This document shows, piece by piece, positions 1 through 13,805 of a DNA stretch of 13,805 nucleotides. The stretch spans positions 1 through 13,805 of IMG/VR virus record IMGVR_UViG_2703718840_000009, one strand, 5' to 3'. Position numbers and translations under genes: made by a program. The DNA comes from a virus. Taxonomy: Duplodnaviria; Heunggongvirae; Uroviricota; Caudoviricetes. Each line of letters begins with the position of its first letter. The stretch's first letter is position 1. The notes beneath the pieces are model-generated. The model made no database searches. It worked only from the letters and a program-made list of their open reading frames with translations, and had not been told where the DNA came from.

Positions 1-585
1 CTATTCGATAATGGGTCCTGTTGGCCATTCAATATCCGGTGCAGTTGATGTATCAACACGGTTCAGCAACACCCGATACTTCTTCCAGGCTTCCAGCAAC
101 GAGTTTTCTTCCTCCGTTGCGATCTCCAGATCCACAGCATCCTGAAGCGGCGCTATATGCTCACTGGCTACCTGCATCAGGCTGTTTTTTGTTTCTTCCG
201 CCTCCCGGATCCGGAACAGTTTTTCTGCTTCCGTATCCTTCACCCAGGCTGTGCCGTTCCACTTCTGATATTCCCCTCCCGGCGACAACCAGGTAACATT
301 TTCCGGTAACGGACCGAGTTCAGAAATAAATAACGCGTCGCCGGAAGCCACGTCATAAACCGTTTTACCCCGATGGTCTTCAACGAGATGCCACGATGCC
401 TCATCACTGTTGAAAACGGCCACAAAGCCAGCAGGAATATCTGGCGGTGCAATATAGGTACTGTTTGCTGGCAGACCTGTATGAGGCGGAATATATGCAT
501 CACCTTCACCAATAAATTCATTAGTTCCGGCCAGCAGATTATAAATTTTTATGGTCCGTGGTTGTTCACTCATTCTGAATGCCAT
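1..585 (-). CDS. tfa: Tail fibre assembly protein Tfa
   Basis: 194-aa ORF ([24 protein letters not shown]...) matches lambda Tfa from memory. Stop codon is at 1-3; start overlaps the stf stop (ATGA). Confidence 0.9.
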
Positions 586-1481
586 TATGCAAGCCTCACA
601 ATATAGTTAAATGCGATGTTTTTGACGGTGTTTTCCGCGTTACCAGCAGCGTTAACGGTGATGGTGTGTCCATGTGAACCAATCGCAACCGAGTGCGTAT
701 GCGCACCAATACCGACAGTATGTGCGTGTGCACCTGCGCTTGCAGCAGTACCCGATACAGAGTGCGTATGAGCGCCTGCAGAAGAAGTGTTAACACTGTA
801 TTTAGAATAATCAGGTGATCCACTTCCCGGAGCACCACTGGAACCACCTGAAACAAATGTCATCGAATGGGTATGTGCACCGGCTGAAGCAGCCGTACCG
901 CTAACACTATGGGTATGCGCACCAGTGTTATTCGTGGATTTAGTGCCGTAATCAAACGACGATGTGGTTTTCGTCCCCAAATCCGTACTGGATACGCTGG
1001 CGCTGTGGGTGTGTGATTTAATGCCGTCCTGTTCCTGAGACAATACGGCTCGATCACTGGCGGGCTTGCCCTTAATCGTCCAGCCACGCATATCAGGGAT
1101 CACGCCTGACGGATAAGCGGCTGCAAGTTTCGGGTAAGCAGATTTGTCAAAAGTCTGCCCCTGCATCAGGGCATAACCAGACGGAACGGTATCTGATGGC
1201 CACGGGATTGGTGCACCGACTGGATAAAACTCTGCAGGAGGATGAGCCGAGGTGTAAAGCTGCGCCCACGGCGACCAGTTTGCGTCGGTCGTATCCCGTC
1301 GTGAACGAATAAATGCCGGAGCATGAGCACCGCTTGTACCACTCCAGCCGATGAGTAACTCACCTTCGCCAACGGCTGTCATCCCTTTCAGGTGAATGAT
1401 ATTTCCATACGCTGTTGGATATCCGTTGTTATACACCTCGTATAACTCAAGACCTGTTGCCCCCTGCGTATTGTCTGTCAA
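585..1481 (-). pseudogene. stf: Side tail fibre protein Stf, C-terminal fragment (~298 codons) truncated at a deletion junction
   Basis: His-rich GAHTHS repeats typical of the lambda Stf C-terminus. The frame stays open upstream into terminase A sequence with no native start; the ORF track start is a TTG. Confidence 0.8.
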
Positions 1482-1657
1482 CGCGGTTGAAAGGGCAGTG
1501 TTTCCCAGCGCCCTTCCTGGTATGCGGATTCTTTCGGGAGATAGTAATTAGCATCCGCCCATTCAACGGCGGTCTGTGGCTCCGGCCTGAACAGTGAGCG
1601 AAGCCCGGCGCGGACAAAATGCCGCAGCCTGTTAACCTGACTGTTCGATATATTCAC
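1478..1657 (-). pseudogene. A: Terminase large subunit A, N-terminal ~57-codon remnant ending at the deletion junction
   Basis: Reverse complement reads [59 protein letters not shown], then departs from lambda A and hits TGA. Start overlaps the nu1 end as in lambda. Confidence 0.75.
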
Positions 1658-2177
1658 TCAGCAACCCCGGTATCAGTTCATCCAGCGCGGCTGCTTTGTT
1701 CATGGCTTTGATAATATCCCGTTTCAGGAAATCAACATGTCGGTTTTCCAGTTCCGGAAAACGCCGCTGCACCGACAGGGGGAGCCCGTCGAGAATACTG
1801 GCAATTTCACCTGCGATCCGCGACAACACGAAAGTACAGAATGCGGTTTCCACCACTTCAGCGGAGTCTCTGGCATTCTTCAGTTCCTGTGCGTCGGCCT
1901 GCGCACGCGTAAGTCGATGGCGTTCGTACTCAATAGTTCCTGGCTGGAGATCTGCCTCGCTGGCCTGCCGCAGTTCTTCAACCTCCCGGCGCAGCTTTTC
2001 GTTCTCAATTTCAGCATCCCTTTCGGCATACCATTTTATGACGGCGGCAGAGTCATAAAGCACCTCATTACCCTTGCCACCGCCTCGCAGAACGGGCATT
2101 CCCTGTTCCTGCCAGTTCTGAATGGTACGGATACTCGCACCGAAAATGTCAGCCAGCTGCTTTTTGTTGACTTCCAT
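1632..2177 (-). CDS. nu1: Terminase small subunit Nu1
   Basis: 181-aa ORF (MEVNKKQLADIFGASIRTIQNWQEQGMPVLRGGGKGNEVLYDSAAV...) matches lambda Nu1 from memory, with an N-terminal HTH. Confidence 0.92.
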   Translation of the reverse strand: MEVNKKQLADIFGASIRTIQNWQEQGMPVLRGGGKGNEVLYDSAAVIKWYAERDAEIENEKLRREVEELRQASEADLQPGTIEYERHRLTRAQADAQELKNARDSAEVVETAFCTFVLSRIAGEIASILDGLPLSVQRRFPELENRHVDFLKRDIIKAMNKAAALDELIPGLLSEYIEQSG

Positions 2178-2189
2178 TGTTCATTCCAC

Positions 2190-2400
2190 GGACAAAAACA
2201 GAGAAAGGAAACGACAGAGGCCAAAAAGCTCGCTTTCAGCACCTGTCGTTTCCTTTCTTTTCAGAGGGTATTTTAAATAAAAACATTAAGTTATGACGAA
2301 GAAGAACGGAAACGCCTTAAACCGGAAATTTTTCATAAATAGCGAAAACCCGCGAGGTCGCCGCCCCGTAACCTGTCGGATCACCGGAAAGGACCCGTAA
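2190..2400 (-). other. cos: Annealed cos site (cosB-cosN-cosQ); 12-nt cohesive-end sequence at about 2355-2366
   Basis: Plus strand 2341-2366 (agcgaaaacccgcgaggtcgccgccc) is the reverse complement of the lambda left end GGGCGGCGACCTCGCGGGTTTTCGCT. It is followed directly by cgtaacctgtcgg, the reverse complement of the lambda right end. Confidence 0.85.
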
Positions 2401-2565
2401 AGTGATAATGATTATCATCTACATATCACAACGTGCGTGGAGGCCATCAAACCACGTCAAATAATCAATTATGACGCAGGTATCGTATTAATTGATCTGC
2501 ATCAACTTAACGTAAAAACAACTTCAGACAATACAAATCAGCGACACTGAATACGGGGCAACCTC

Positions 2566-2760
2566 ATGTCAACGAAGAACAGAACCCGCAGAACAACAAC
2601 CCGCAACATCCGCTTTCCTAACCAAATGATTGAACAAATTAACATCGCTCTTGAGCAAAAAGGGTCCGGGAATTTCTCAGCCTGGGTCATTGAAGCCTGC
2701 CGTCGGAGACTAACGTCAGAAAAGAGAGCATATACATCAATTAAAAGTGATGAAGAATGA
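2566..2760 (+). CDS. Hypothetical small protein with a possible ribbon-helix-helix (Arc/CopG-like) fold
   Basis: 64-aa ORF starting in right-end lambda sequence (catgaggttgccccg). Basic N-terminus then a strand-helix-helix pattern (RNIRFPNQMIEQINIALEQKGSGNFSAWVIEACRRRL). No convincing RBS seen. Confidence 0.35.
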   Translation: MSTKNRTRRTTTRNIRFPNQMIEQINIALEQKGSGNFSAWVIEACRRRLTSEKRAYTSIKSDEE

Positions 2761-2924
2761 ACATCCCGCGTTCTTCCCTCCGAACAGGACGATATTGTAA
2801 ATTCACTTAATTACGAGGGCATTGCAGTAATTGAGTTGCAGTTTTACCACTTTCCTGACAGTGACAGACTGCGTGTTGGCTCTGTCACAGACTAAATAGT
2901 TTGAATGATTAGCAGTTATGGTGA

Positions 2925-3131
2925 TCAGTCAACCACCAGGGAATAATCCTTCATATTATTATCGTGCTTCACCAACGCTGCCTCAATTGCTCTGAATGCT
3001 TCCAGAGACACCTTATGTTCTATACATGCAATTACAACATCAGGGTAACTCATAGAAATGGTGCTATTAAGCATATTTTTTACACGAATCAGATCCACGG
3101 AGGGATCATCAGCAGATTGTTCTTTATTCAT
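2925..3131 (-). CDS. Hypothetical 68-aa protein of the lambda right arm
   Basis: ORF in a visibly AT-rich block at the position of a small ORF I recall near the lambda right end. Confidence 0.5.
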
Positions 3132-3293
3132 TTTGTCGCTCCATGCGCTTGCTCTTCATCTAGCGGTTAAAATATTACTTCAAATCTTTCTGTATGAAGA
3201 TTTGAGCACGTTGGCCTTACATACATCTGTCGGTTGTATTTCCCTCCAGAATGCCAGCAGGACCGCACTTTGTTAAGCAACCAATACTATTAA

Positions 3294-3827
3294 GTGAAAA
3301 CATTCCTAATATTTGACATAAATCATCAACAAAACACAAGGAGGTCAGACCAGATTGAAACGATAAAAACGATAATGCAAACTACGCGCCCTCGTATCAC
3401 ATGGAAGGTTTTACCAATGGCTCAGGTTGCCATTTTTAAAGAAATATTCGATCAAGTGCGAAAAGATTTAGACTGTGAATTGTTTTATTCTGAACTAAAA
3501 CGTCACAACGTCTCACATTATATTTACTATCTAGCCACAGATAATATTCACATCGTGTTAGAAAACGATAACACCGTGTTAATAAAAGGACTTAAAAAGG
3601 TTGTAAATGTTAAATTCTCAAGAAACACGCATCTTATAGAAACGTCCTATGATAGGTTGAAATCAAGAGAAATCACATTTCAGCAATACAGGGAAAATCT
3701 TGCTAAAGCAGGAGTTTTCCGATGGGTTACAAATATCCATGAACATAAAAGATATTACTATACCTTTGATAATTCATTACTATTTACTGAGAGCATTCAG
3801 AACACTACACAAATCTTTCCACGCTAA
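3294..3827 (+). CDS. Hypothetical 177-aa protein of the lambda right arm (true start may be an internal Met)
   Basis: Long ORF in the AT-rich block between cos and bor; an aggaggt RBS-like motif lies inside the 5' end, suggesting a later start. Confidence 0.5.
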
Positions 3828-4116
3828 ATCATAACGTCCGGTTTCTTCCGTGTCAGCACCGGGGCGTTGGCATAATGCAATACGTGTACGCGCTAAACCC
3901 TGTGTGCATCGTTTTAATTATTCCCGGACACTCCCGCAGAGAAGTTCCCCGTCAGGGCTGTGGACATAGTTAATCCGGGAATACAATGACGATTCATCGC
4001 ACCTGACATACATTAATAAATATTAACAATATGAAATTTCAACTCATTGTTTAGGGTTTGTTTAATTTTCTACACATACGATTCTGCGAACTTCAAAAAG
4101 CATCGGGAATAACACC

Positions 4117-4410
4117 ATGAAAAAAATGCTACTCGCTACTGCGCTGGCCCTGCTTATTACAGGATGTGCTCAACAGACGTTTACTGTTCAAAACAAACCG
4201 GCAGCAGTAGCACCAAAGGAAACCATCACCCATCATTTCTTCGTTTCTGGAATTGGGCAGAAGAAAACTGTCGATGCAGCCAAAATTTGTGGCGGCGCAG
4301 AAAATGTTGTTAAAACAGAAACCCAGCAAACATTCGTAAATGGATTGCTCGGTTTTATTACTTTAGGCATTTATACTCCGCTGGAAGCGCGTGTGTATTG
4401 CTCACAATAA
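4117..4410 (+). CDS. bor: Bor lipoprotein (serum-resistance, Iss-like)
   Basis: 97-aa ORF with signal peptide and lipobox (MKKMLLATALALLITGCAQQ), matching lambda Bor from memory. Opposite orientation to the lysis genes, as in lambda. Confidence 0.9.
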   Translation: MKKMLLATALALLITGCAQQTFTVQNKPAAVAPKETITHHFFVSGIGQKKTVDAAKICGGAENVVKTETQQTFVNGLLGFITLGIYTPLEARVYCSQ

Positions 4411-4441
4411 TTGCATGAGTTGCCCATCGATATGGGCAACT

Positions 4442-4903
4442 CTATCTGCACTGCTCATTAATATACTTCTGGGTTCCTTCCAGTTGTTTTTGCATAGTGA
4501 TCAGCCTCTCTCTGAGGGTGAAATAATCCCGTTCAGCGGTGTCTGCCAGTCGGGGGGAGGCTGCATTATCCACGCCGGAGGCGGTGGTGGCTTCACGCAC
4601 TGACTGACAGACTGCTTTGATGTGCAACCGACGACGACCAGCGGCAACATCATCACGCAGAGCATCATTTTCAGCTTTAGCATCAGCTAACTCCTTCGTG
4701 TATTTTGCATCGAGCGCAGCAACATCACGCTGACGCATCTGCATGTCAGTAATTGCCGCGTTCGCCAGCTTCAGTTCTCTGGCATTTTTGTCGCGCTGGG
4801 CTTTGTAGGTAATGGCGTTATCACGGTAATGATTAACAGCCCATGACAGGCAGACGATGATGCAGATAACCAGAGCGGAGATAATCGCGGTGACTCTGCT
4901 CAT
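4442..4903 (-). CDS. Rz: Spanin inner-membrane subunit Rz
   Basis: 153-aa ORF with N-terminal TM segment and coiled-coil body; matches lambda Rz from memory. Confidence 0.9.
4501..4683 (-). CDS. Rz1: Spanin outer-membrane lipoprotein Rz1, nested in the +1 frame of Rz
   Basis: 60-aa ORF inside Rz with lipobox (VVVGCTS) and a proline-rich stretch ([15 protein letters not shown]). Confidence 0.85.
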
Positions 4904-5376
4904 ACATCAATCTCTCTGACCGTTCCGCCCGCTTCTTTGAATTTTGCAATCAGGCTGTCAGCCTTATGCTCGAACTGACCATAACCAGCGCCCGGCAGTG
5001 AAGCCCAGATATTGCTGCAACGGTCGATTGCCTGACGGATATCACCACGATCAATCATAGGTAAAGCGCCACGCTCCTTAATCTGCTGCAATGCCACAGC
5101 GTCCTGACTTTTCGGAGAGAAGTCTTTCAGGCCAAGCTGCTTGCGGTAGGCATCCCACCAACGGGAAAGAAGCTGGTAGCGTCCGGCGCCTGTTGATTTG
5201 AGTTTTGGGTTTAGCGTGACAAGTTTGCGAGGGTGATCGGAGTAATCAGTGAATAGCTCTCCGCCTACAATGACGTCATAACCATGATTTCTGGTTTTCT
5301 GACGTCCGTTATCAGTTCCCTCCGACCACGCCAGCATATCGAGGAACGCCTTACGTTGATTATTGATTTCTACCAT
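4900..5376 (-). CDS. R: Endolysin R (lytic transglycosylase)
   Basis: 158-aa ORF ([35 protein letters not shown]...) matches lambda R from memory; overlaps the Rz start. Confidence 0.95.
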
Positions 5377-5683
5377 CTTCTACTCCGGCTTTTTTAGCAG
5401 CGAAGCGTTTGATAAGCGAACCAATCGAGTCAGTACCGATGTAGCCGATAAACACGCTCGTTATATAAGCGAGATTGCTACTTAGTCCGGCGAAGTCGAG
5501 AAGGTCACGAATGAACCAGGCGATAATGGCGCACATCGTTGCGTCGATTACTGTTTTTGTAAACGCACCGCCATTATATCTGCCGCGAAGGTACGCCATT
5601 GCAAACGCAAGGATTGCCCCGATGCCTTGTTCCTTTGCCGCGAGAATGGCGGCCAACAGGTCATGTTTTTCTGGCATCTTCAT
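5360..5683 (-). CDS. S: Holin/antiholin S (S107/S105 dual start)
   Basis: 107-aa ORF beginning [32 protein letters not shown] with the Met1-Lys2-Met3 dual-start motif and three TM segments. Confidence 0.95.
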
Positions 5684-6088
5684 GTCTTACCCCCAATAAG
5701 GGGATTTGCTCTATTTAATTAGGAATAAGGTCGATTACTGATAGAACAAATCCAGGCTACTGTGTTTAGTAATCAGATTTGTTCGTGACCGATATGCACG
5801 GGCAAAACGGCAGGAGGTTGTTAGCGCGACCTCCTGCCACCCGCTTTCACGAAGGTCATGTGTAAAAGGCCGCAGCGTAACTATTACTAATGAATTCAGG
5901 ACAGACAGTGGCTACGGCTCAGTTTGGGTTGTGCTGTTGCTGGGCGGCGATGACGCCTGTACGCATTTGGTGATCCGGTTCTGCTTCCGGTATTCGCTTA
6001 ATTCAGCACAACGGAAAGAGCACTGGCTAACCAGGCTCGCCGACTCTTCACGATTATCGACTCAATGCTCTTACCTGTTGTGCAGATA

Positions 6089-6145
6089 TAAAAAATCCCG
6101 AAACCGTTATGCAGGCTCTAACTATTACCTGCGAACTGTTTCGGG
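6089..6145 (-). terminator. tR' intrinsic terminator of the 6S transcript
   Basis: On the minus strand, cccgaaac ... gtttcggg stem followed by a U-run (reverse complement of plus-strand 6089-6145). Confidence 0.7.
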
Positions 6146-6282
6146 ATTGCATTTTGCAGACCTCTCTGCCTGCGATGGTTGGAGTTCCAGACGATACGTC
6201 GAAGTGACCAACTAGGCGGAATCGGTAGTAAGCGCCGCCTCTTTTCATCTCACTACCACAACGAGCGAATTAACCCATCGTT
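6089..6282 (-). ncRNA. Lambda 6S RNA (short pR' transcript terminated at tR')
   Basis: Interval between the inferred pR' start and tR'; the sequence matches the lambda pR'-tR' region from memory. The TSS position is approximate. Confidence 0.55.
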
Positions 6283-6320
6283 GAGTCAAATTTACCCAAT
6301 TTTATTCAATAAGTCAATAT
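6283..6320 (-). promoter_or_regulatory. Late promoter pR' with overlapping qut site
   Basis: Minus strand reads TTGACT (-35), 17-nt spacer, TAAATT (-10), as in lambda (ttgacttattgaataaaattgggtaaatttgactcaacgatgg). Confidence 0.65.
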
Positions 6321-6359
6321 CATGCCGTTAATATGTTACCATCCGTGGCAATCATGCTG

Positions 6360-6752
6360 CTAACGTGTGACCGCATTCAAAATGTTGTCTGCGATTGACT
6401 CTTCTTTGTGGCATTGCACCACCAGAGCGTCATACAGCGGCTTAACAGTGCGTGACCAGGTGGGTTGGGTAAGGTTTGGGATTAGCATCGTCACAGCGCG
6501 ATATGCTGCGCTTGCTGGCATCCTTGAATAGCCGACGCCTTTGCATCTTCCGCACTCTTTCTCGACAACTCTCCCCCACAGCTCTGTTTTGGCAATATCA
6601 ACCGCACGGCCTGTACCATGGCAATCTCTGCATCTTGCCCCCGGCGTCGCGGCACTACGGCAATAATCCGCATAAGCGAATGTTGCGAGCACTTGCAGTA
6701 CCTTTGCCTTAGTATTTCCTTCAAGCTTTGCCACACCACGGTATTTCCCCGA
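6360..6752 (-). pseudogene. Q: Antiterminator Q, C-terminal fragment only (~130 codons)
   Basis: C-terminus (SGKYRGVAKLEGNTKAKVLQ ... HKEESIADNILNAVTR) matches lambda Q. The ORF-track extension to 7019 is antisense to bet/exo, so the Q N-terminus is absent. Confidence 0.8.
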
Positions 6753-6948
6753 TAACGATGAAACCATGCAGGAGATTAACACTCTGCTGATCGCCCTGGA
6801 TAAAACATGGGATGACGACTTATTGCCGCTCTGTTCCCAGATATTTCGCCGCGACATTCGTGCATCGTCAGAACTGACACAGGCCGAAGCAGTGAAAGCT
6901 CTTGGATTCCTGAAACAAAAAGCCACTGAGCAGAAGGTGGCAGCATGA
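6748..6948 (+). pseudogene. bet: Bet single-strand annealing protein, C-terminal ~66-codon remnant
   Basis: Reads (PD)[64 protein letters not shown], the lambda Bet C-terminus; stop overlaps the exo start (ATGA). Confidence 0.8.
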
Positions 6949-7625
6949 CACCGGACATTATCCTGCAGCGTACCGGGATCGACGTGAGAGCTGTCGAACA
7001 GGGGGATGATGCATGGCACAAATTACGGCTCGGCGTCATCACCGCTTCAGAAGTTCACAACGTGATAGCAAAGCCCCGCTCAGGAAAGAAGTGGCCTGAC
7101 ATGAAAATGTCCTACTTCCACACCCTGCTTGCCGAGGTTTGCACCGGTGTGGCTCCGGAAGTTAACGCTAAAGCACTGGCCTGGGGAAAACAGTACGAGA
7201 ACGACGCCAGAACCCTGTTTGAGTTCACTTCCGGCGTGAATGTTATTGAATCCCCGATCATCTATCGCGACGAAAGTATGCGTACCGCCTGCTCTCCCGA
7301 TGGTTTATGCAGTGACGGCAATGGCCTTGAGCTGAAATGCCCGTTTACCTCCCGGGATTTCATGAAGTTCCGGCTCGGTGGTTTCGAGGCCATAAAATCG
7401 GCTTACATGGCCCAGGTGCAGTACAGCATGTGGGTGACACGAAAAGATGCCTGGTACTTTGCCAACTATGACCCACGTATGAAGCGTGAAGGACTGCATT
7501 ATGTCGTGGTTGAGCGGGATGAAAAGTACATGGCGAGTTTTGACGAGATGGTGCCGGAGTTCATCGAAAAAATGGACGAGGCACTGGCTGAAATTGGTTT
7601 TGTATTTGGGGAGCAATGGCGATGA
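6945..7625 (+). CDS. exo: Lambda exonuclease (Red alpha)
   Basis: 226-aa ORF ([40 protein letters not shown]...) matches lambda Exo from memory. Confidence 0.95.
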
Positions 7626-7804
7626 AGCATCCTCACGATAATATCCGGGTAGGTGCGATCACTTTCGTCTACTCCGTTACAAAGCGAGGCTGGGTATTTC
7701 CCGGCCTTTCTGTTATCAGAAATCCCCTGAAAGCACAGCGGCTGGCTGAGGAGATAAATAATAAACGGGGAGCTGTATGCACAAAGCATCTCCCGTTGAG
7801 TTAA
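7616..7804 (+). CDS. Small hypothetical protein (lambda orf60a-like); start may be the ATG at 7622
   Basis: Small ORF immediately after exo, overlapping its stop, as in the lambda pL operon. Confidence 0.6.
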
Positions 7805-7968
7805 GAACGAGTATCGAGATGGCACATAGCCTCGCTCAAATTGGAGTCAGGTTTGTGCCAATACCAGTAGAAACAGACGAAGAATTTCATACGTTAGCCG
7901 CATCCCTTTCACAAAAGCTGGAAATGATGGTGGCGAAAGCAGAAGCAGATGAGAGAGACCAGGTATGA
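7777..7968 (+). CDS. Small hypothetical protein (lambda orf63-like)
   Basis: 63-aa ORF overlapping the neighbouring ORFs, in the same order as lambda. Confidence 0.6.
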   Translation: MHKASPVELRTSIEMAHSLAQIGVRFVPIPVETDEEFHTLAASLSQKLEMMVAKAEADERDQV

Positions 7969-8044
7969 CAACCACTGAATGTATTTTTCTGGCAGCGGGC
8001 TTCATATTCTGTGTGCTTATGCTTGCCGACATGGGGCTTGTTCA

Positions 8045-8260
8045 ATGACACCTCAGCAAGAAAACGCCCTTCGCAGCATTGCCCGTCAGGCTAATTCTGA
8101 AATCAAAAAAGCCAGACAGCAGTTTCCGGATAAAAACGTCGATGACATTTGCCGTAGCGTACTGAAGAAGCACCGCGAAACGGTAACGCTGATGGGATTC
8201 ACACCGACTCATTTAAGCCTGGCAATCGGCATGTTAAACGGCGTCTTTAAGGAACGATGA
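8045..8260 (+). CDS. Small hypothetical protein (lambda orf61-region); ORF track extends it upstream to 7979
   Basis: Internal ATG at 8045 gives MTPQQENALRSIARQANSEIKKARQQFPDKNVDD...; no recognisable domain. Confidence 0.45.
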   Translation: MTPQQENALRSIARQANSEIKKARQQFPDKNVDDICRSVLKKHRETVTLMGFTPTHLSLAIGMLNGVFKER

Positions 8261-8358
8261 ACATGAAAAGCAAAATTATCAGGGAGCTACAGGCTCCTTT
8301 TTTATTGCTCGCATTTACCCCCAAGCGTATTAACCAACAATTCAGGGATTAATGGAAG

Positions 8359-8580
8359 ATGGCAGACATCATTGATTCAGCATCAGAAATTGAAGAATTA
8401 CAGCGCAACACAGCAATAAAAATGCGCCGCCTGAACCACCAGGCTGTATCTGCCACTCATTGTTGTGAGTGTGGCGATCCCATAGATGAGCTAAGACGCC
8501 TGGCCGTTCAGGGTTGTCGGACTTGTGCAAGTTGCCAGGAAGATCTGGAGCTTATCAGTAAACAGAGAGGTTCGAAGTGA
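8359..8580 (+). CDS. TraR/DksA-family C4 zinc-finger protein (lambda Orf73-like)
   Basis: 73-aa ORF with CxxC-(17)-CxxC (HCCECGDPIDELRRLAVQGCRTCASC), resembling F-plasmid TraR. Stop overlaps the next ORF start (GTGA). Confidence 0.8.
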   Translation: MADIIDSASEIEELQRNTAIKMRRLNHQAVSATHCCECGDPIDELRRLAVQGCRTCASCQEDLELISKQRGSK

Positions 8581-8990
8581 GCGTAATTCACTCTCAGGCA
8601 CTGCGTGAAGCGGCAGAGCAGGCAATGCCTGACAACTGGGGATTTGACGCGGACCTTTTCCATGAGCTGGTAACACCATCGATTGTGCTGACACTGCTGG
8701 ATGAACGGGAAAGAAACCAGCAATACATCAAACGCCGCGACCAGGAGAACGAGGATATTGCGCTAACGGTGGGGAAACTGCGTGTTGAGCTGGAGACAGC
8801 AAAAATCAAAACTCAACGAGCAGCGTGAGTAGAAGGTGTTATCTCGGATGGAAGTAAGCGTATTGCTGAACTGGAGGCCTGGGTTGAATACACAAGAGCT
8901 GCATACGTAAGAGCAAAAGACAAGGGAGATTTGATCAGAGTTATTACCCGCCAACCAACGGGATTTTACGCTTACGTACCATGTAATTAG
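8577..8990 (+). pseudogene. ea22: ea22-like ORF interrupted by an in-frame TGA at 8826-8828 (83 codons, stop, then 53 open codons)
   Basis: N-terminus MSVIHSQALREAAEQAMPDNWGFDADLFHELVTPSIVL resembles lambda Ea22 (from memory, uncertain). After the TGA the same frame reads VEGVISDGSKRIAELEAWVEYTRAAYVRAKDKGDLIRVITRQPTGFYAYVPCN to TAG at 8988-8990. Confidence 0.5.
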
Positions 8991-9126
8991 GAATCCTTGA
9001 AGTGGCAGCCTAACTGCGGATACACTGAAATGGCGATTTGGTAACATGTTTCGCACAAGGCTGTTACTACACTTAGAGATAATCAGCCATGATTAAACGC
9101 TTTGTAAAAAGTAAAAGGAAATTACA

Positions 9127-9741
9127 ATGAAAAAATCAATACTAATTTTAGGGCTTACGTTAATTGTCTCATCTCAAATACCATCGGCAATGGCAAAAAA
9201 TGAATCAAAACTATGGGTTGTTGTTGATCGAACGGAAAGACATACCTGCCCTTCAAGTAAATGTGGAGTGGCTGGGAAACTATTTTTCAGGGAAGGCGTA
9301 GATTTTCTAGAAAAAAAAGGTGAATGGGTTCGTATAACTGAGCCATATTCAGCCTCATGTGTTGGAGGGGAAAGCGAATATATTAAAGAAGGTAATAAAT
9401 CCTGCACAAGAAAAAATGGAATCGTTAATGGCAAGTTTTCAGAATGGGTTAAACTTAGTGATCTTAGCAGTGAAAGGCCATCAGATCCTGCTGAAAATGC
9501 GAGCGGAGATGATACTTTAATCAAAGGATCTGATGACTACCGTATATACAAAAAAGAGTTTTCTTCGGCAGCTAGGAAGTTAATAAATGAAGGGGTCTGC
9601 ACGGAAAGCGATTTTAAGGAAATCGGAGGGTGGATGGCATCAAGCAATAAGGGTGAAAACATCTATTTCACATATTGCGGAGGAATGACGTTGTCGAACA
9701 GAATATATCTAGACGTTAAAAGTGGAAAGACTTTTAGATAA
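9127..9741 (+). CDS. Hypothetical secreted protein with a possible bacterial SH3-like N-terminal domain (non-lambda)
   Basis: 204-aa ORF with RBS aagga ~8 nt upstream and a signal peptide (MKKSILILGLTLIVSSQIPSAMA). Visibly AT-rich, several Cys, followed by a terminator hairpin. Confidence 0.8.
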   Translation: MKKSILILGLTLIVSSQIPSAMAKNESKLWVVVDRTERHTCPSSKCGVAGKLFFREGVDFLEKKGEWVRITEPYSASCVGGESEYIKEGNKSCTRKNGIVNGKFSEWVKLSDLSSERPSDPAENASGDDTLIKGSDDYRIYKKEFSSAARKLINEGVCTESDFKEIGGWMASSNKGENIYFTYCGGMTLSNRIYLDVKSGKTFR

Positions 9742-9812
9742 TATGATATTACCAATGACAGCATTAATTTAATGCCTCCATAGAATTATCTCCAGGAAGT
9801 AAGTATAAGAAA

Positions 9813-9850
9813 AGCCCGCACAATGAGCTGCTGCGGGCTTTGTGTTATTC
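9813..9850 (+). terminator. Putative intrinsic terminator after the secreted-protein gene
   Basis: Stem agcccgca / tgcgggct with ~11-nt loop, followed by a T-rich tract (ttgtgttatt). Confidence 0.55.
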
Positions 9851-10034
9851 GCCATATTTTATGAAGCAAATACGACACTATAGATAATTAAGCGTTACTG
9901 GTTGTCGATTCCTCACTCATTCCTGCTGATGGCTGTCTTCTTGTATGTGCCATTGAAGGGTAATATCGCGTAAAAAGATACCGGAAGTATCCGCGCCGCC
10001 ATGATTGTCTTTCTCCTGATGCAGGAAAAGCAGA

Positions 10035-10373
10035 ATGACTAGATCAGCAGCAGAGCGCAAAGCCGATCAGAGAGCCAAGCAAGCATCATCCGGTATGCGT
10101 AAGCTGGAGCTTGTACTTGATGCTCAGGAAATTGAAATGCTGGAGCGTAACTGAGCCACGCGCCGCTTCAGGCGTGCGCCTTACGAGTTTGGTGAGTACA
10201 TAGCATTACTGAGCCGCCAGGATGATGCACGTGTGCGCTGGCGTATAAAATCGATTAGCAGAAAACGTTGCCGTAAGTGCGGCGAGAGAGTTCCTGTTAA
10301 TTCATGCCCGTGTAATGGTGACTCACAATACTGGGTGACCAAAGGCTGGCACGAAACAAAATTAATGATATAA
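10035..10373 (+). pseudogene. Zinc-ribbon small ORF (possible Ea8.5 counterpart) split by an in-frame TGA at 10152-10154
   Basis: ATG at 10035 with RBS aggaaaag gives 39 aa (MTRSAAERKADQRAKQASSGMRKLELVLDAQEIEMLERN). After the TGA the same frame stays open to TAA at 10371-10373 and contains CRKCGERVPVNSCPC; a GTG at 10233 could restart it. Confidence 0.4.
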
Positions 10374-10401
10374 ATCTCTGTGACATGTCACGGAGGCGGC
10401 A

Positions 10402-10830
10402 ATGAAATTAGACCAGCAATATCTAAAAGATCTACTTATCGCATTCGAAAAAACTTATGGCCCTGACACGATGCTTAGTGAACTAGAGGATAATGGCTTT
10501 AATAGATATGACCAAAATTTTATTTTCCATATGCGATTATTATGTGACTACGAATTAATAGTTAGGGTTGATGGAAAACCAGGGTTCGGTCATATAATGT
10601 CCAACGAGTTAGGGGAAGGTGTTGAATATAGTTGGATCGAAGTACCACTGAGGTTGACAGCAAGAGGGCATGATTTTATTGCTGACTTACGTCAAAAGGA
10701 GGTCTGGCAAGCTATAAAAACAAACTTTAAGGATGAGGGAATTAGTACTCTTATGAGTGTTTCAAAATCACTAGCAAAAGTCTTTGCAAGGAAAAAAATA
10801 AAAGATATTACAGGAATAGATATTGAATAA
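10402..10830 (+). CDS. Hypothetical 142-aa protein, no signal peptide (non-lambda)
   Basis: Strong RBS ggagg 5 nt upstream; visibly AT-rich; preceded by a 12-bp palindrome and followed by a terminator hairpin at about 10877-10900. Confidence 0.75.
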   Translation: MKLDQQYLKDLLIAFEKTYGPDTMLSELEDNGFNRYDQNFIFHMRLLCDYELIVRVDGKPGFGHIMSNELGEGVEYSWIEVPLRLTARGHDFIADLRQKEVWQAIKTNFKDEGISTLMSVSKSLAKVFARKKIKDITGIDIE

Positions 10831-10876
10831 TTCTTAGCATCAAGCAACTACTGCCTTTGGTGAAAATTATATCTGA

Positions 10877-10900
10877 ACTCGCTACGGCGAGTTTTGTTTT
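10877..10900 (+). terminator. Putative intrinsic terminator after the 142-aa gene
   Basis: 6-bp stem actcgc / gcgagt with loop tacg, followed by tttgtttt. Confidence 0.55.
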
Positions 10901-10913
10901 ACGGAGATGATAA

Positions 10914-11081
10914 ATGCACTTCAGAGTCACTGGTGAATGGAATGGAGAACCATTCAACAGAGTTATCTAAGCAGAGAACATCAATGACTGCTATGACAAC
11001 TGGATGATATGGGCGCAGATAGCACATGCAGACATAACCAATATTCGAATTGAAGAACTGAAAGAACACCAAGCCGCCTGA
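10914..11081 (+). pseudogene. Small ORF upstream of xis (lambda orf55-position) interrupted by an in-frame TAA at 10968-10970
   Basis: Reads MHFRVTGEWNGEPFNRVI, TAA, then AENINDCYDNWMIWAQIAHADITNIRIEELKEHQAA to TGA at 11079-11081. The 168-nt span fits the 55-codon lambda ORF I recall at this position. Confidence 0.4.
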
Positions 11082-11120
11082 TGGCGGTTTTTTCTTGCGT
11101 GTAATTGCGGAGACTTTGCG

Positions 11121-11339
11121 ATGTACTTGACACTTCAGGAGTGGAACGCTCGCCAGCGACGCCCAAGAAGCCTTGAAACAGTTCGTCGATGGGTGCGCGA
11201 ATGCAGGATATTCCCTCCTCCGGTTAAGGATGGAAGAGAGTATCTGTTCCACGAATCAGCGGTAAAGGTTGACTTAAATCGACCAGTAACAGGTAGCCTT
11301 TTGAAGAGGATCAGAAATGGGAAGAAGGCGAAGTCATGA
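11121..11339 (+). CDS. xis: Excisionase Xis
   Basis: 72-aa ORF (MYLTLQEWNARQRRPRSLETVRRWVRECRIFPPPVKDGREYLFHESAVKVDLN...) matches lambda Xis; 3' end overlaps int. Confidence 0.95.
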   Translation: MYLTLQEWNARQRRPRSLETVRRWVRECRIFPPPVKDGREYLFHESAVKVDLNRPVTGSLLKRIRNGKKAKS

Positions 11340-12387
11340 GCGCCGGGATTTACCCCCTAACCTTTATATAAGAAACAATGGATATTACTGCTACAGGGAC
11401 CCAAGGACGGGTAAAGAGTTTGGATTAGGCAGAGACAGGCGAATCGCAATCACTGAAGCTATACAGGCCAACATTGAGTTATTTTCAGGACACAAACACA
11501 AGCCTCTGACAGCGAGAATCAACAGTGATAATTCCGTTACGTTACATTCATGGCTTGATCGCTACGAAAAAATCCTGGCCAGCAGAGGAATCAAGCAGAA
11601 GACACTCATAAATTACATGAGCAAAATTAAAGCAATAAGGAGGGGTCTGCCTGATGCTCCACTTGAAGACATCACCACAAAAGAAATTGCGGCAATGCTC
11701 AATGGATACATAGACGAGGGCAAGGCGGCGTCAGCCAAGTTAATCAGATCAACACTGAGCGATGCATTCCGAGAGGCAATAGCTGAAGGCCATATAACAA
11801 CAAACCCTGTCGCTGCCACTCGCGCAGCAAAATCAGAGGTAAGGAGATCAAGACTTACGGCTGACGAATACCTGAAAATTTATCAAGCAGCAGAATCATC
11901 ACCATGTTGGCTCAGACTTGCAATGGAACTGGCTGTTGTTACCGGGCAACGAGTTGGTGATTTATGCGAAATGAAGTGGTCTGATATCGTAGATGGATAT
12001 CTTTATGTCGAGCAAAGCAAAACAGGCGTAAAAATTGCCATCCCAACAGCATTGCATGTTGATGCTCTCGGAATATCAATGAAGGAAACACTTGATAAAT
12101 GCAAAGAGATTCTTGGCGGAGAAACCATAATTGCATCTACTCGTCGCGAACCGCTTTCATCCGGCACAGTATCAAGGTATTTTATGCGCGCACGAAAAGC
12201 ATCAGGTCTTTCCTTCGAAGGGGATCCGCCTACCTTTCACGAGTTGCGCAGTTTGTCTGCAAGACTCTATGAGAAGCAGATAAGCGATAAGTTTGCTCAA
12301 CATCTTCTCGGGCATAAGTCGGACACCATGGCATCACAGTATCGTGATGACAGAGGCAGGGAGTGGGACAAAATTGAAATCAAATAA
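11317..12387 (+). CDS. int: Integrase Int (tyrosine recombinase)
   Basis: 356-aa ORF (MGRRRSHERRDLPPNLYIRNNGYYCYRDPRTGKEFGLGRDRRIAITEAIQ...) matches lambda Int over its full length. Confidence 0.97.
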   Translation: MGRRRSHERRDLPPNLYIRNNGYYCYRDPRTGKEFGLGRDRRIAITEAIQANIELFSGHKHKPLTARINSDNSVTLHSWLDRYEKILASRGIKQKTLINYMSKIKAIRRGLPDAPLEDITTKEIAAMLNGYIDEGKAASAKLIRSTLSDAFREAIAEGHITTNPVAATRAAKSEVRRSRLTADEYLKIYQAAESSPCWLRLAMELAVVTGQRVGDLCEMKWSDIVDGYLYVEQSKTGVKIAIPTALHVDALGISMKETLDKCKEILGGETIIASTRREPLSSGTVSRYFMRARKASGLSFEGDPPTFHELRSLSARLYEKQISDKFAQHLLGHKSDTMASQYRDDRGREWDKIEIK

Positions 12388-12483
12388 TGATTTTATTTTG
12401 ACTGATAGTGACCTGTTCGTTGCAACAAATTGATAAGCAATGCTTTTTTATAATGCCAACTTAGTATAAAAAAGCAGGCTTCA
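12388..12483. other. attL: attL junction: phage P' arm with Int arm-type sites, 15-bp core (about 12461-12475), then bacterial arm
   Basis: Reverse complement reads tgaagcct-GCTTTTTTATACTAA-gttggcattataaaaaagcattgcttatcaatttgttgcaacgaacaggtcactatcagtcaaaataaaatca: bacterial-side sequence, lambda core, then lambda P' arm. Confidence 0.88.
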
Positions 12484-12521
12484 ACGGATTCATTTTTCTA
12501 TTTCATAGCCCGGAGCAACCT

Positions 12522-13805
12522 GTGAACACATTTTCAGTTTCCCGTCTGGCGCTGGCATTGGCTTTTGGCGTGACGCTGACCGCCTGTAGCTCAACCCCGC
12601 CCGATCAACGTCCTTCTGATCAAACCGCGCCTGGTACCTCTTCTCGCCCGATTCTGTCGGCAAAAGAAGCGCAGAATTTCGATGCTCAACACTATTTTGC
12701 ATCCCTGACACCAGGTGCTGCAGCGTGGAATCCTTCCCCGATTACCCTGCCTGCGCAACCTGACTTTGTTGTCGGCCCGGCGGGCACTCAAGGTGTAACG
12801 CATACCACGATTCAGGCGGCGGTAGATGCGGCAATTATCAAGCGTACCAACAAGCGCCAGTATATTGCCGTGATGCCTGGTGAGTATCAGGGAACGGTAT
12901 ATGTCCCTGCCGCTCCGGGTGGAATTACTCTGTACGGTACAGGTGAAAAACCGATTGATGTGAAGATTGGGCTTTCCCTTGATGGTGGCATGAGCCCTGC
13001 CGACTGGCGTCACGACGTCAACCCGCGCGGCAAATATATGCCAGGTAAACCAGCGTGGTATATGTACGATAGCTGCCAGAGCAAACGCAGCGACAGTATC
13101 GGTGTTCTCTGCTCTGCGGTCTTCTGGTCACAAAACAATGGCCTGCAACTGCAAAATCTGACCATCGAAAACACGCTGGGCGATAGCGTAGATGCAGGTA
13201 ACCATCCGGCGGTGGCACTGCGTACTGATGGTGACCAGGTACAGATTAACAACGTTAACATTCTCGGTCGTCAGAACACCTTCTTTGTCACCAACAGCGG
13301 TGTGCAGAACCGTCTGGAAACGAATCGTCAGCCGCGTACGCTGGTGACCAACAGCTACATTGAAGGGGATGTGGATATCGTTTCTGGTCGCGGCGCAGTG
13401 GTGTTCGATAACACCGAATTCCGCGTGGTGAACTCACGTACTCAGCAAGAAGCGTATGTGTTTGCACCGGCTACGCTGTCCAACATTTACTACGGTTTCC
13501 TCGCCGTAAACAGCCGTTTCAATGCTTTCGGTGATGGTGTGGCGCAACTGGGCCGCTCGCTGGATGTTGATGCCAATACCAACGGTCAGGTGGTGATCCG
13601 TGATAGCGCCATCAACGAAGGTTTTAACACGGCTAAACCGTGGGCCGATGCGGTGATCTCTAATCGTCCGTTTGCGGGTAATACCGGCAGCGTAGATGAT
13701 AACGACGAAATACAGCGCAATCTGAATGACACTAACTACAACCGCATGTGGGAATACAATAACCGCGGCGTGGGTAGTAAAGTGGTTGCAGAGGCGAAGA
13801 AGTAA
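12522..13805 (+). CDS. ybhC: Host outer-membrane lipoprotein YbhC (pectinesterase-family / acyl-CoA thioesterase)
   Basis: 427-aa ORF with GTG start, signal peptide and lipobox (LTAC); recognised as E. coli YbhC, the gene beside the lambda attachment site. Visibly higher GC than the prophage accessory regions. Confidence 0.88.
   Translation: MNTFSVSRLALALAFGVTLTACSSTPPDQRPSDQTAPGTSSRPILSAKEAQNFDAQHYFASLTPGAAAWNPSPITLPAQPDFVVGPAGTQGVTHTTIQAAVDAAIIKRTNKRQYIAVMPGEYQGTVYVPAAPGGITLYGTGEKPIDVKIGLSLDGGMSPADWRHDVNPRGKYMPGKPAWYMYDSCQSKRSDSIGVLCSAVFWSQNNGLQLQNLTIENTLGDSVDAGNHPAVALRTDGDQVQINNVNILGRQNTFFVTNSGVQNRLETNRQPRTLVTNSYIEGDVDIVSGRGAVVFDNTEFRVVNSRTQQEAYVFAPATLSNIYYGFLAVNSRFNAFGDGVAQLGRSLDVDANTNGQVVIRDSAINEGFNTAKPWADAVISNRPFAGNTGSVDDNDEIQRNLNDTNYNRMWEYNNRGVGSKVVAEAKK

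What the first reader, a model, noticed from the sequence alone, without database searches (positions are those of the whole stretch)
8577..8990. ea22-like ORF with a single in-frame TGA and a long open continuation
After 83 codons the frame hits TGA at 8826-8828 and then stays open for 53 more codons of protein-like sequence. That is unlikely by chance and suggests a recent nonsense mutation, with frameshifts relative to lambda also possible nearby. The element may encode only the N-terminal Ea22 domain.
Basis: seen in the sequence. Interest (0 to 1): 0.45.

Follow-up and report, generated by a model that had tools for sequence, protein, structure and literature searches.

The report
Frameshifted, truncated phage ea22 gene
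This is an ordinary broken copy of the lambda-type phage gene ea22, cut short by a 4-base deletion and a 1-base insertion rather than by a point mutation; it is common in E. coli prophages and RefSeq already marks it as a pseudogene.

Summary
A GTG-started ORF (8577-8828, 83 codons) ends at TGA 8826-8828, and the same frame stays open for 53 more codons to TAG 8988-8990. The ORF is ea22-like (Pfam PF13935, E=1e-20).

The "recent nonsense mutation" reading is wrong in mechanism. Compared with lambda and with intact relatives, the window has an extra A in an A-run (A5 at 8801-8805) and has lost TTAC after 8831. The net change is -3. The stretch between the two indels is read out of frame and exposes a pre-existing TGA (ancestral CGT GAG).

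Alleles with only the 4-bp deletion exist (84 aa, ending at TAG), so the deletion probably came first. Intact 138/141-aa alleles sit in the same prophage context but are rare. The exact 83-aa product occurs on at least 1000 contigs, and 109 complete E. coli genomes match this stretch at 99% or better, so it is not a sequencing error. NCBI's genome annotation pipeline (PGAP) already calls it "frameshifted; missing C-terminus".

The untranslated tail is identical to the intact allele, which is why it still looks protein-like. I found no sign of read-through or programmed frameshifting. Verdict: an ordinary, already-annotated truncated gene, of low interest.

The parts
8359..8580 (+). Upstream TraR/DksA-type zinc-finger gene (lambda orf73 homologue). 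Its TGA stop overlaps the GTG start of ea22 (GTGA).
8577..8828 (+). Truncated ea22 ORF of 83 codons plus TGA. Residues 1-76 are native Ea22 (N-terminal segment and most of the coiled coil). Residues 77-83 (IKTQRAA) are read out of frame.
   Evidence: the exact product is on at least 1000 contigs; PGAP calls it a frameshifted pseudogene
8801..8805 (+). A5 run carrying one extra A. Lambda, the intact alleles and the alleles with only the 4-bp deletion all have A4. This is the +1 frameshift.
8826..8828 (+). The TGA that ends the ORF. Its bases are ancestral (CGT GAG) and are exposed only by the +1 shift.
8830..8832 (+). Site of the 4-bp deletion: TTAC is lost between 8831 and 8832 (ancestral GAGTATTACGAA). 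In lambda's frame this creates TAG, which is the stop used by the 84-aa alleles that have only the deletion.
8832..8875 (+). Untranslated relic of the last part of the Ea22 coiled coil (EGVISDGSKRIAELE). It is back in frame 0 because the two indels sum to -3. Nucleotide similarity to lambda ends at about 8875.
8876..8990 (+). Untranslated relic of a short alternative C-terminal module (AWVEYTRAAYVRAKDKGDLIRVITRQPTGFYAYVPCN, then TAG). Positions 8880-8958 match, in frame, an internal piece of a 285-aa 'EaA' protein of the phage-plasmids PhiR41_1 and Cyrano.

Best explanation
The feature is a truncated allele of a mosaic ea22 gene in the exo-xis region of a lambdoid prophage.

The ancestral gene encoded 138-141 aa in three parts: the conserved Ea22 N-terminal segment, the coiled coil, and a short 37-aa C-terminal module unlike lambda's.

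A 4-bp deletion (TTAC) created TAG at codon 85 and shifted the rest of the gene out of frame. A later 1-bp insertion in an A4 run, 25 nt upstream of the present stop, changed the last eight residues (SKLNEQRE to IKTQRAA) and moved the stop to a pre-existing TGA.

Because -4 and +1 sum to -3, the dead 3' part came back into the ORF's frame. Because no substitution has hit it since, it is still open and looks like protein.

Shown: both indels, the intermediate and intact alleles, and how widespread the allele is. Inferred: the order of the two events, and that only an 83-aa N-terminal and coiled-coil fragment can be made, lacking any C-terminal domain. In this window even that fragment is probably poorly expressed, because the prophage has lost pL, N and the whole immunity and replication region.
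For: - Alignment to lambda ea22 shows A5 against A4 and the loss of TTAC, with identity continuing to 8875.
- An eight-sequence alignment shows the allelic series in the same prophage context (TraR gene upstream, 204-aa gene downstream):
  - intact: L014/P0172 (138 aa) and L010/P0003 (141 aa);
  - 4-bp deletion only: L013/P0145, L015 and L016/P0132 (84 aa);
  - both indels: the window.
- The alleles with only the deletion occur on three upstream sequence backgrounds, including the window's own (P0145).
- The relic 8833-8990 has no differences from the intact P0172 allele or from any deletion-only allele.
- All three frames are closed between 8826 and 8858.
- The allele is common. Many complete E. 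coli genomes are 100% identical over 8577-9130. 109 records match 8790-9060 at 99% or better. The exact 83-aa product is on at least 1000 contigs, against one contig for each intact form.
- PGAP notes it as 'frameshifted; incomplete; missing C-terminus'.
- Pfam PF13935 covers profile positions 2-110 of 139 in the 83-aa product, and 2-139 in the repaired protein.
- The window's prophage is defective, with a truncated Q gene joined directly to the 3' end of bet at about 6753.
Against: - The order of the two indels is inferred. The 84-aa alleles could instead have arisen from the double-indel allele by loss of one A.
- The 83-aa allele is hundreds of times more abundant than the intact one. A second independent truncation (TAG after ...KRIAEL, 100/103 aa) is also common, on 211 contigs. 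This could mean the short form is tolerated or even favoured, rather than simply dead.
- There are no expression data.
Confidence: 0.85

Rival explanations
1. The truncation is not a dead end. An Ea22 without a C-terminal domain (N-terminal segment plus coiled coil, 83-103 aa) is a functional and possibly favoured short form, for example still oligomerising or acting as a modulator. Under this reading, repeated loss of the C-terminal module is adaptive.
For: - At least three independent lesions all spare the first 76-100 residues: the 4-bp deletion with or without the extra A, GAG to TAG after ...KRIAEL in NS-NP030 and P0094/P0041, and a further frameshift in P0125.
- The truncated forms are on at least 1000 and 211 contigs, against about one contig for each intact form.
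- The allele is carried by Chlobot, a phage deposited as an isolate.
- Window and lambda differ in the first 76 codons mostly at synonymous sites (my count from the alignment: about 5 non-synonymous codons and 7 synonymous).
Against: - The abundance can simply reflect the spread of one successful prophage lineage, whose sequences are nearly identical.
- ea22 is dispensable in lambda: deletion mutants are viable (PMC7093339).
- No experiment shows activity for the N-terminal part alone. PMC10834534 reports only that lambda's C-terminal domain alone is inactive and that the full-length protein is a tetramer.
- The purifying-selection signal predates the truncation.
Confidence: 0.12
2. The TGA is read through, with Trp inserted, or bypassed by programmed frameshifting. 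The cell would then make both an 83-aa and a 137-aa protein, and the frame restoration by the second indel would have been selected for this.
For: - The downstream frame is restored and intact.
- One metagenome contig (L008/P0002) has TTA in place of TGA and encodes a full 137-aa protein.
- Background UGA read-through exists in E. coli (established knowledge).
Against: - Given the -4 deletion, any +1 insertion restores the frame, so the coincidence is cheap.
- There is no stimulatory RNA structure (z-score +0.73) and no Rfam match.
- From my own recall, not checked here, UGA followed by G is not a notably leaky context.
- A +1 slip on the A-run runs into TAG at 8830-8832, and the third frame stops at 8856-8858.
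- The 'Trp' protein P0061 is a caller artefact, because its DNA has TGA.
- The TTA variant is a single 887-nt contig.
Confidence: 0.02
3. The stop is a sequencing or assembly error, such as a homopolymer miscall, and the real gene is intact.
For: One of the two lesions lies in a homopolymer (A5).
Against: - Both indels and the TGA are identical in over 100 independently sequenced complete E. coli genomes, in plasmids of Klebsiella, Enterobacter and Citrobacter, and in phage Chlobot.
- The second lesion is a 4-bp deletion outside any homopolymer.
Confidence: 0.005
4. The real gene here is the minus-strand ORF 8763-9056 (97 aa), which the Chlobot record annotates as a hypothetical protein, and the plus-strand open frame is incidental.
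For: The Chlobot record annotates a minus-strand CDS at window 8763-9047.
Against: - It has no Pfam match.
- Its frame and length are not kept in relatives that differ by the indels: the longest antisense open stretches jump between frames and range from 94 to 165 codons.
- The plus strand is demonstrably ea22-derived.
- PGAP does not call it in any of the E. coli genomes examined.
Confidence: 0.01

Closest known systems
Bacteriophage lambda ea22 (NP_040612, 182 aa), Ead/Ea22-like family (Pfam PF13935 / InterPro IPR025153)
   Same: - Same locus, directly after the orf73/TraR gene, with the same overlapping GTG start.
- Window 8300-8875, which runs from the TraR gene into ea22, is 94% identical to lambda at nucleotide level.
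- Same N-terminal segment and coiled coil.
   Different: - The reading frame is broken at codon 77.
- Lambda's C-terminal domain (residues ~102-182, NMR structure in PMC10834534) is absent.
- The ancestral allele carried a different, 37-aa C-terminal module.
Intact 138/141-aa Ea22 variants with the '...AELEAWVEYTRAAYVRAKDKGDLIRVITRQPTGFYAYVPCN' tail (P0172, P0166, P0167, P0001, P0003)
   Same: - Same prophage context.
- Identical 3' sequence.
- P0172, P0166 and P0167 have the same N-terminus.
   Different: They have A4 and retain TTAC, so they are translated to the end. They are rare: one contig each, about a dozen in total, nearly all from metagenome or read-archive assemblies.
RefSeq pseudogene 'ead/Ea22-like family protein; frameshifted; incomplete; missing C-terminus' (e.g. 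DTO54_RS17820 in NZ_CP030939.1) and the 83-aa protein in NCBI nr/UniRef (A0A1M1VWZ0_ECOLX)
   Same: 100% identical DNA over 8577-9130, and the identical 83-aa product.
   Different: Nothing. This is the same allele, already catalogued.
Mosaic Ea22 variants V1-V3 of Stx phages (PMC10834534, PMC7093339)
   Same: A shared N-terminal and coiled-coil block joined to unrelated C-terminal modules. The ancestral form of this allele follows the same pattern.
   Different: Those variants are intact and have larger C-terminal domains (one, V2, carries DUF551). This one has a very short tail, and that tail is no longer translated.

Membership tests
Ead/Ea22-like family (PF13935) | Sequence match to the family profile above the curated cut-off | tested here: met
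   83-aa product: E=1.3e-20, 74.8 bits against a cut-off of 27, profile positions 2-110 of 139. Repaired protein: 100.2 bits, positions 2-139.
Ead/Ea22-like family (PF13935) | Position in the exo-xis region of a lambdoid phage, directly downstream of the orf73/TraR gene | tested here: met
   Gene order is exo, DUF1317, DUF1382, hypothetical, TraR, ea22', then xis and int further on, with the GTGA start/stop overlap as in lambda.
Ead/Ea22-like family (PF13935) | Three-part architecture of N-terminal segment, full coiled coil and C-terminal domain, as described for lambda and Stx-phage Ea22 (PMC10834534) | tested here: not met
   Translation stops at codon 84. The last third of the coiled coil and the whole C-terminal module lie after the TGA.
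Ead/Ea22-like family (PF13935) | Tetrameric protein with pro-lysogenic activity | not testable with these tools
   Needs biochemistry and phage genetics.
Pseudogene / truncated allele | Intact, longer orthologues at the same locus | tested here: met
   L014 (138 aa) and L010 (141 aa) have the same flanking genes.
Pseudogene / truncated allele | An identifiable disabling lesion relative to the intact form | tested here: met
   A 4-bp deletion after 8831 and a +1 A at 8801-8805. The intermediate with only the deletion was also found.
Pseudogene / truncated allele | Loss of function or loss of expression | not testable with these tools
   Indirect evidence only: the window's prophage lacks pL, N and the immunity region.
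Programmed recoding (stop-codon read-through or ribosomal frameshift) | A recoding signal (slippery site with a route to the downstream frame, or a stimulatory RNA structure), and conservation beyond identity by descent | tested here: not met
   All three frames stop within 8826-8858. The fold z-score is +0.73. There is no Rfam match. The copies that carry the TGA are near-identical to one another.

The most novel reading that the evidence does not exclude
Ea22 proteins without a C-terminal domain (83-103 aa, N-terminal segment plus coiled coil) could be a recurrently selected functional short form. This ea22 variant has been truncated independently at least three times, and the truncated alleles outnumber intact ones by roughly 100 to 1 in public data. 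That would point to the N-terminal and coiled-coil part as the active core of a protein whose mechanism is still unknown.
Probability: 0.12. Interest if true: 0.35.

Novelty: already known. Interest (0 to 1): 0.08.

Why it matters
It matters little. The case shows how an in-frame stop followed by a long open continuation can come from two frameshifts that cancel out, rather than from a nonsense mutation or recoding. It also shows that the raw phage annotation here is misleading: the Chlobot record has a 67-aa hypothetical protein plus an antisense hypothetical protein at this spot. For people working on Ea22, the allelic series (intact, deletion only, deletion plus extra A, and the independent TAG alleles) offers natural truncation mutants for testing whether the N-terminal and coiled-coil part has activity of its own.

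Tried and rejected
- **Point nonsense mutation.** Rejected. The TGA bases are unchanged from lambda and from intact alleles.
- **Sequencing error.** Rejected on population data.
- **Sense-restoring 'Trp' variant (P0061).** Rejected. Its contig has TGA and the tool reports that the gene does not translate to the stored protein, so the caller read TGA as Trp.
- **Window comes from phage Chlobot, and Chlobot carries host ybhC as a transducing phage.** Rejected. Chlobot matches the window only over 6753-12475 (98.5%) and diverges at the att core into phage DNA, whereas the window continues into chromosomal ybhC.
- **Internal restart for the downstream part.** There is no ATG or GTG in frame after the TGA. 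The only candidate is a TTG about 20 codons before the end (read from the sequence).
- **Non-coding RNA or stimulatory structure.** No Rfam match and a fold z-score of +0.73.
- **Known domain for the 37-aa tail.** No Pfam match. The only similarity is to an internal segment of 'EaA' proteins of phage-plasmids.
- **Homology of the 204-aa downstream protein to the PhiR41_1 neighbour.** None.
- **Not attempted.** I did not run structure prediction, because it would not change the verdict.

Full report
**Observation**

The ORF list and translation confirm the finding as written.
- GTG at 8577 overlaps the TGA stop of the upstream 73-aa TraR/DksA-type zinc-finger gene (8359-8580).
- 83 sense codons follow, then TGA at 8826-8828.
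- The same frame runs for another 53 sense codons to TAG at 8988-8990.

With the window's own stop-codon frequency (0.044 over all frames), 53 open codons has P about 0.09. Statistics alone are therefore weak, and homology settles the matter.

**What it is**

The 83-aa product matches Pfam Ead_Ea22 (PF13935) at E=1.3e-20, covering profile positions 2-110 of 139. Window 8300-8875 is 94% identical to lambda across orf73 and ea22 and 100% identical to Escherichia phage Chlobot.

The nucleotide alignment to lambda ea22 shows two indels close together:
- an extra A in an A-run (A5 at 8801-8805, against A4 in lambda);
- loss of TTAC after 8831 (ancestral GAGTATTACGAA).

The net change is -3. Lambda reads ...ETAK SKLNEQREYY EGVISDGSKRIAKLE.... 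The window reads ...ETAK IKTQRAA* V EGVISDGSKRIAELE....

The TGA is made of unchanged ancestral bases (CGT GAG) that the +1 shift brings into frame, so there was no nonsense substitution. In lambda's frame the 4-bp deletion itself creates TAG at 8830-8832, and the third frame stops at 8856-8858. All three frames are therefore closed within about 30 nt.

**The continuation**

Similarity to lambda ends at about 8875. Positions 8880-8958 match, at 86-90% and in frame, an internal piece (TWVECTRAAYVRAKDKGELTRVV) of a 221-285-aa 'EaA'-type protein of roughly 108-kb phage-plasmids (PhiR41_1, Cyrano, CMS-2020a). This fits the mosaic build of Ea22 proteins described in PMC10834534 and PMC7093339, in which a common N-terminal and coiled-coil block is joined to unrelated C-terminal modules.

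I searched the large protein collection with a repaired protein. It returned intact proteins of 138, 141, 161 and 183 aa that end exactly in ...AELEAWVEYTRAAYVRAKDKGDLIRVITRQPTGFYAYVPCN. Their contigs have the same gene order as the window: bet, exo, DUF1317, DUF1382, hypothetical, TraR, Ea22, a 204-aa protein, a 112-aa protein and DUF2513. The longer of the two contigs (L010) runs on through int to ybhC. The open continuation is thus the genuine 3' end of a once-intact gene.

**Allelic series**

Cluster look-ups and the contigs behind them give a complete series at nucleotide level.

| Allele | Sequence state | Product | Examples |
|---|---|---|---|
| Intact | A4, TATTAC | 138 or 141 aa | P0172/L014, P0003/L010 |
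| Deletion only | A4, TTAC lost | 84 aa, ...NEQRE then TAG | P0145 (two NCBI E. coli draft assemblies), P0132 (three metagenome contigs) |
| Deletion plus extra A | A5, TTAC lost | 83 aa, ...IKTQRAA then TGA | the window |

The deletion-only alleles occur on three upstream sequence backgrounds, including the window's own. The likeliest order is therefore deletion first, then the A insertion. This order is inferred, and the reverse (loss of one A) is possible. Once -4 has happened, any +1 insertion restores the frame, so the striking long in-frame continuation is a cheap coincidence.

The relic 8833-8990 has no differences from the intact P0172 allele or from any deletion-only allele. That explains why it is still open and protein-like. 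It also supports "recent" in the evolutionary sense.

**Not an error, and not rare**
- Many complete E. coli genomes are 100% identical over 8577-9130.
- 109 of the 128 complete genomes that carry this variant match 8790-9060 at 99% or better.
- The same DNA sits on large plasmids of Klebsiella, Enterobacter and Citrobacter.
- The exact 83-aa product is on at least 1000 contigs (the counter's cap), against one contig for each intact form.
- PGAP already annotates the locus as a pseudogene: 'ead/Ea22-like family protein; frameshifted; incomplete; missing C-terminus'.

A second, independent truncation of the same variant is also common. In strain NS-NP030 and in proteins P0094/P0041 (100/103 aa, 211 contigs for P0094), GAG has become TAG straight after ...KRIAEL, with a second TAG two codons later.

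**Recoding**

I looked for a way to reach the downstream frame and found none.
- A +1 slip on the A-run ends at TAG 8830-8832.
- There is no RNA structure (z = +0.73) and no Rfam match.
- The apparent Trp-for-stop protein P0061 is an artefact, because its contig has TGA.
- One 887-nt metagenome contig really has TTA in place of TGA (P0002). As a single observation it could be a revertant or an error.

**Context in this window**

The window is not Chlobot itself. It matches Chlobot only over 6753-12475 (98.5%), and beyond the att core it runs into chromosomal ybhC, which is present in 5417 of 5426 E. coli genomes.

The gene content is, in order: tail fibre assembly gene, tail fibre fragment, Nu1, DUF1398, bor, Rz, a 158-aa ORF in the endolysin position (no Pfam match), S, a truncated Q gene, then the 3' end of bet, exo and so on through xis and int to ybhC. 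This is a defective prophage at the lambda attachment site. It has lost the structural genes and the whole segment from the nin genes through P, O and the immunity region to N, cIII, kil and gam. With pL and N gone, even the 83-aa fragment is probably poorly expressed here (inference).

**Mechanism and function**

Shown: only the first 76 native residues plus seven out-of-frame residues can be translated.

From the literature: full-length lambda Ea22 is a tetramer that favours lysogeny, its C-terminal domain alone is inactive, and ea22 deletion mutants are viable (PMC10834534, PMC7093339).

Inferred: the 83-aa fragment lacks any C-terminal module and about a third of the coiled coil, so it is most likely a loss-of-function or hypomorphic remnant that the phage tolerates. 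Chlobot, which carries the same allele, is deposited as an isolated phage genome. The main rival is that the short form is functional or favoured. The repeated independent truncations and their abundance hint at this, but clonal spread of one prophage lineage explains the numbers equally well.

**Verdict**

The "nonsense mutation" mechanism is wrong, and the "frameshifts nearby" alternative is right. The object is an ordinary, widespread truncated ea22 allele that is already annotated, so I rate it "already known" and of low interest.

Noticed in passing
window 1-6752, junction at about 6753: The window is a defective lambdoid prophage, not a whole phage. A truncated antiterminator Q gene on the minus strand (ORF 6360-7019) abuts the 3' end of bet on the plus strand. 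The nin genes, P, O, cII, cro, cI, N, cIII, kil, gam and the 5' part of bet are missing. Nu1 (1632-2177, minus strand) lies next to tail-fibre fragments (1-1481) with all head and tail genes gone.
   Followed up: partly
window ~12390-13805: This is the prophage-host junction at the lambda attachment site. The att core (...GCTTTTTTATAATGCCAACTTAGTATAAAAAAGC) is followed by the chromosomal gene ybhC (12522-13805), which is present in 5417 of 5426 E. coli genomes. Phage Chlobot diverges from the window exactly after the core.
   Followed up: yes
L007 (E. coli NS-NP030), equivalent to window 8874-8899: Six substitutions fall within 26 nt, two of them creating in-frame TAGs (GAG to TAG and TGG to TAG), in an allele that otherwise has neither indel. 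The density is unusually high for point decay, so a small recombination patch or a mutational cluster is possible. The resulting 100/103-aa products (P0041, P0094) are common.
   Followed up: partly
window 8880-8958 and ~9890-10000: Two short fragments match adjacent genes of the phage-plasmid PhiR41_1: an in-frame internal piece of an 'EaA' protein, and about 105 nt of a umuD-like gene at roughly 90% identity. The segment between ea22 and the DUF2513 gene therefore seems to derive from a phage-plasmid-like module that has since been broken up. PGAP calls the umuD piece an incomplete 'DNA repair protein' pseudogene.
   Followed up: partly
window 9127-9741 (+): A 204-aa protein with a signal-peptide-like N-terminus and only a weak SH3_3 hint has no assigned function. 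It is conserved directly downstream of every allele of this ea22 variant, occupying roughly the place of lambda ea8.5, and looks like a moron-type accessory gene.
   Followed up: no
window 8763-9056 (-) and 8625-8828 (+): The Chlobot GenBank record annotates an antisense 94-aa hypothetical protein and a 67-aa ATG-started hypothetical protein here instead of a frameshifted ea22. The antisense ORF is not conserved in frame among relatives and is probably a spurious call.
   Followed up: yes
L009 (protein P0061) and L008 (protein P0002): P0061 shows Trp at the stop position only because the gene caller translated TGA as Trp. It also places the double-indel segment behind a different, longer N-terminal module. 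P0002's contig genuinely has TTA at the stop position and so encodes an open 137-aa frame, but this rests on a single short metagenome contig.
   Followed up: yes
L004 (plasmid pECO-cbb3) and the plasmid hits: The identical ea22' segment is carried on 119-454-kb plasmids of E. coli, Klebsiella, Enterobacter and Citrobacter. On pECO-cbb3 it lies beside trkG, lysis-gene fragments and an IS5 transposase, which suggests a prophage remnant that was captured and spread between genera.
   Followed up: no
L010 (P0003), P0001 and P0094, equivalent to window ~8686: Some alleles carry a 9-bp tandem duplication (TGCTGGAAC) that gives ...VLELLELLDE... in the N-terminal region. It is an in-frame length polymorphism independent of the truncations.
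   Followed up: no
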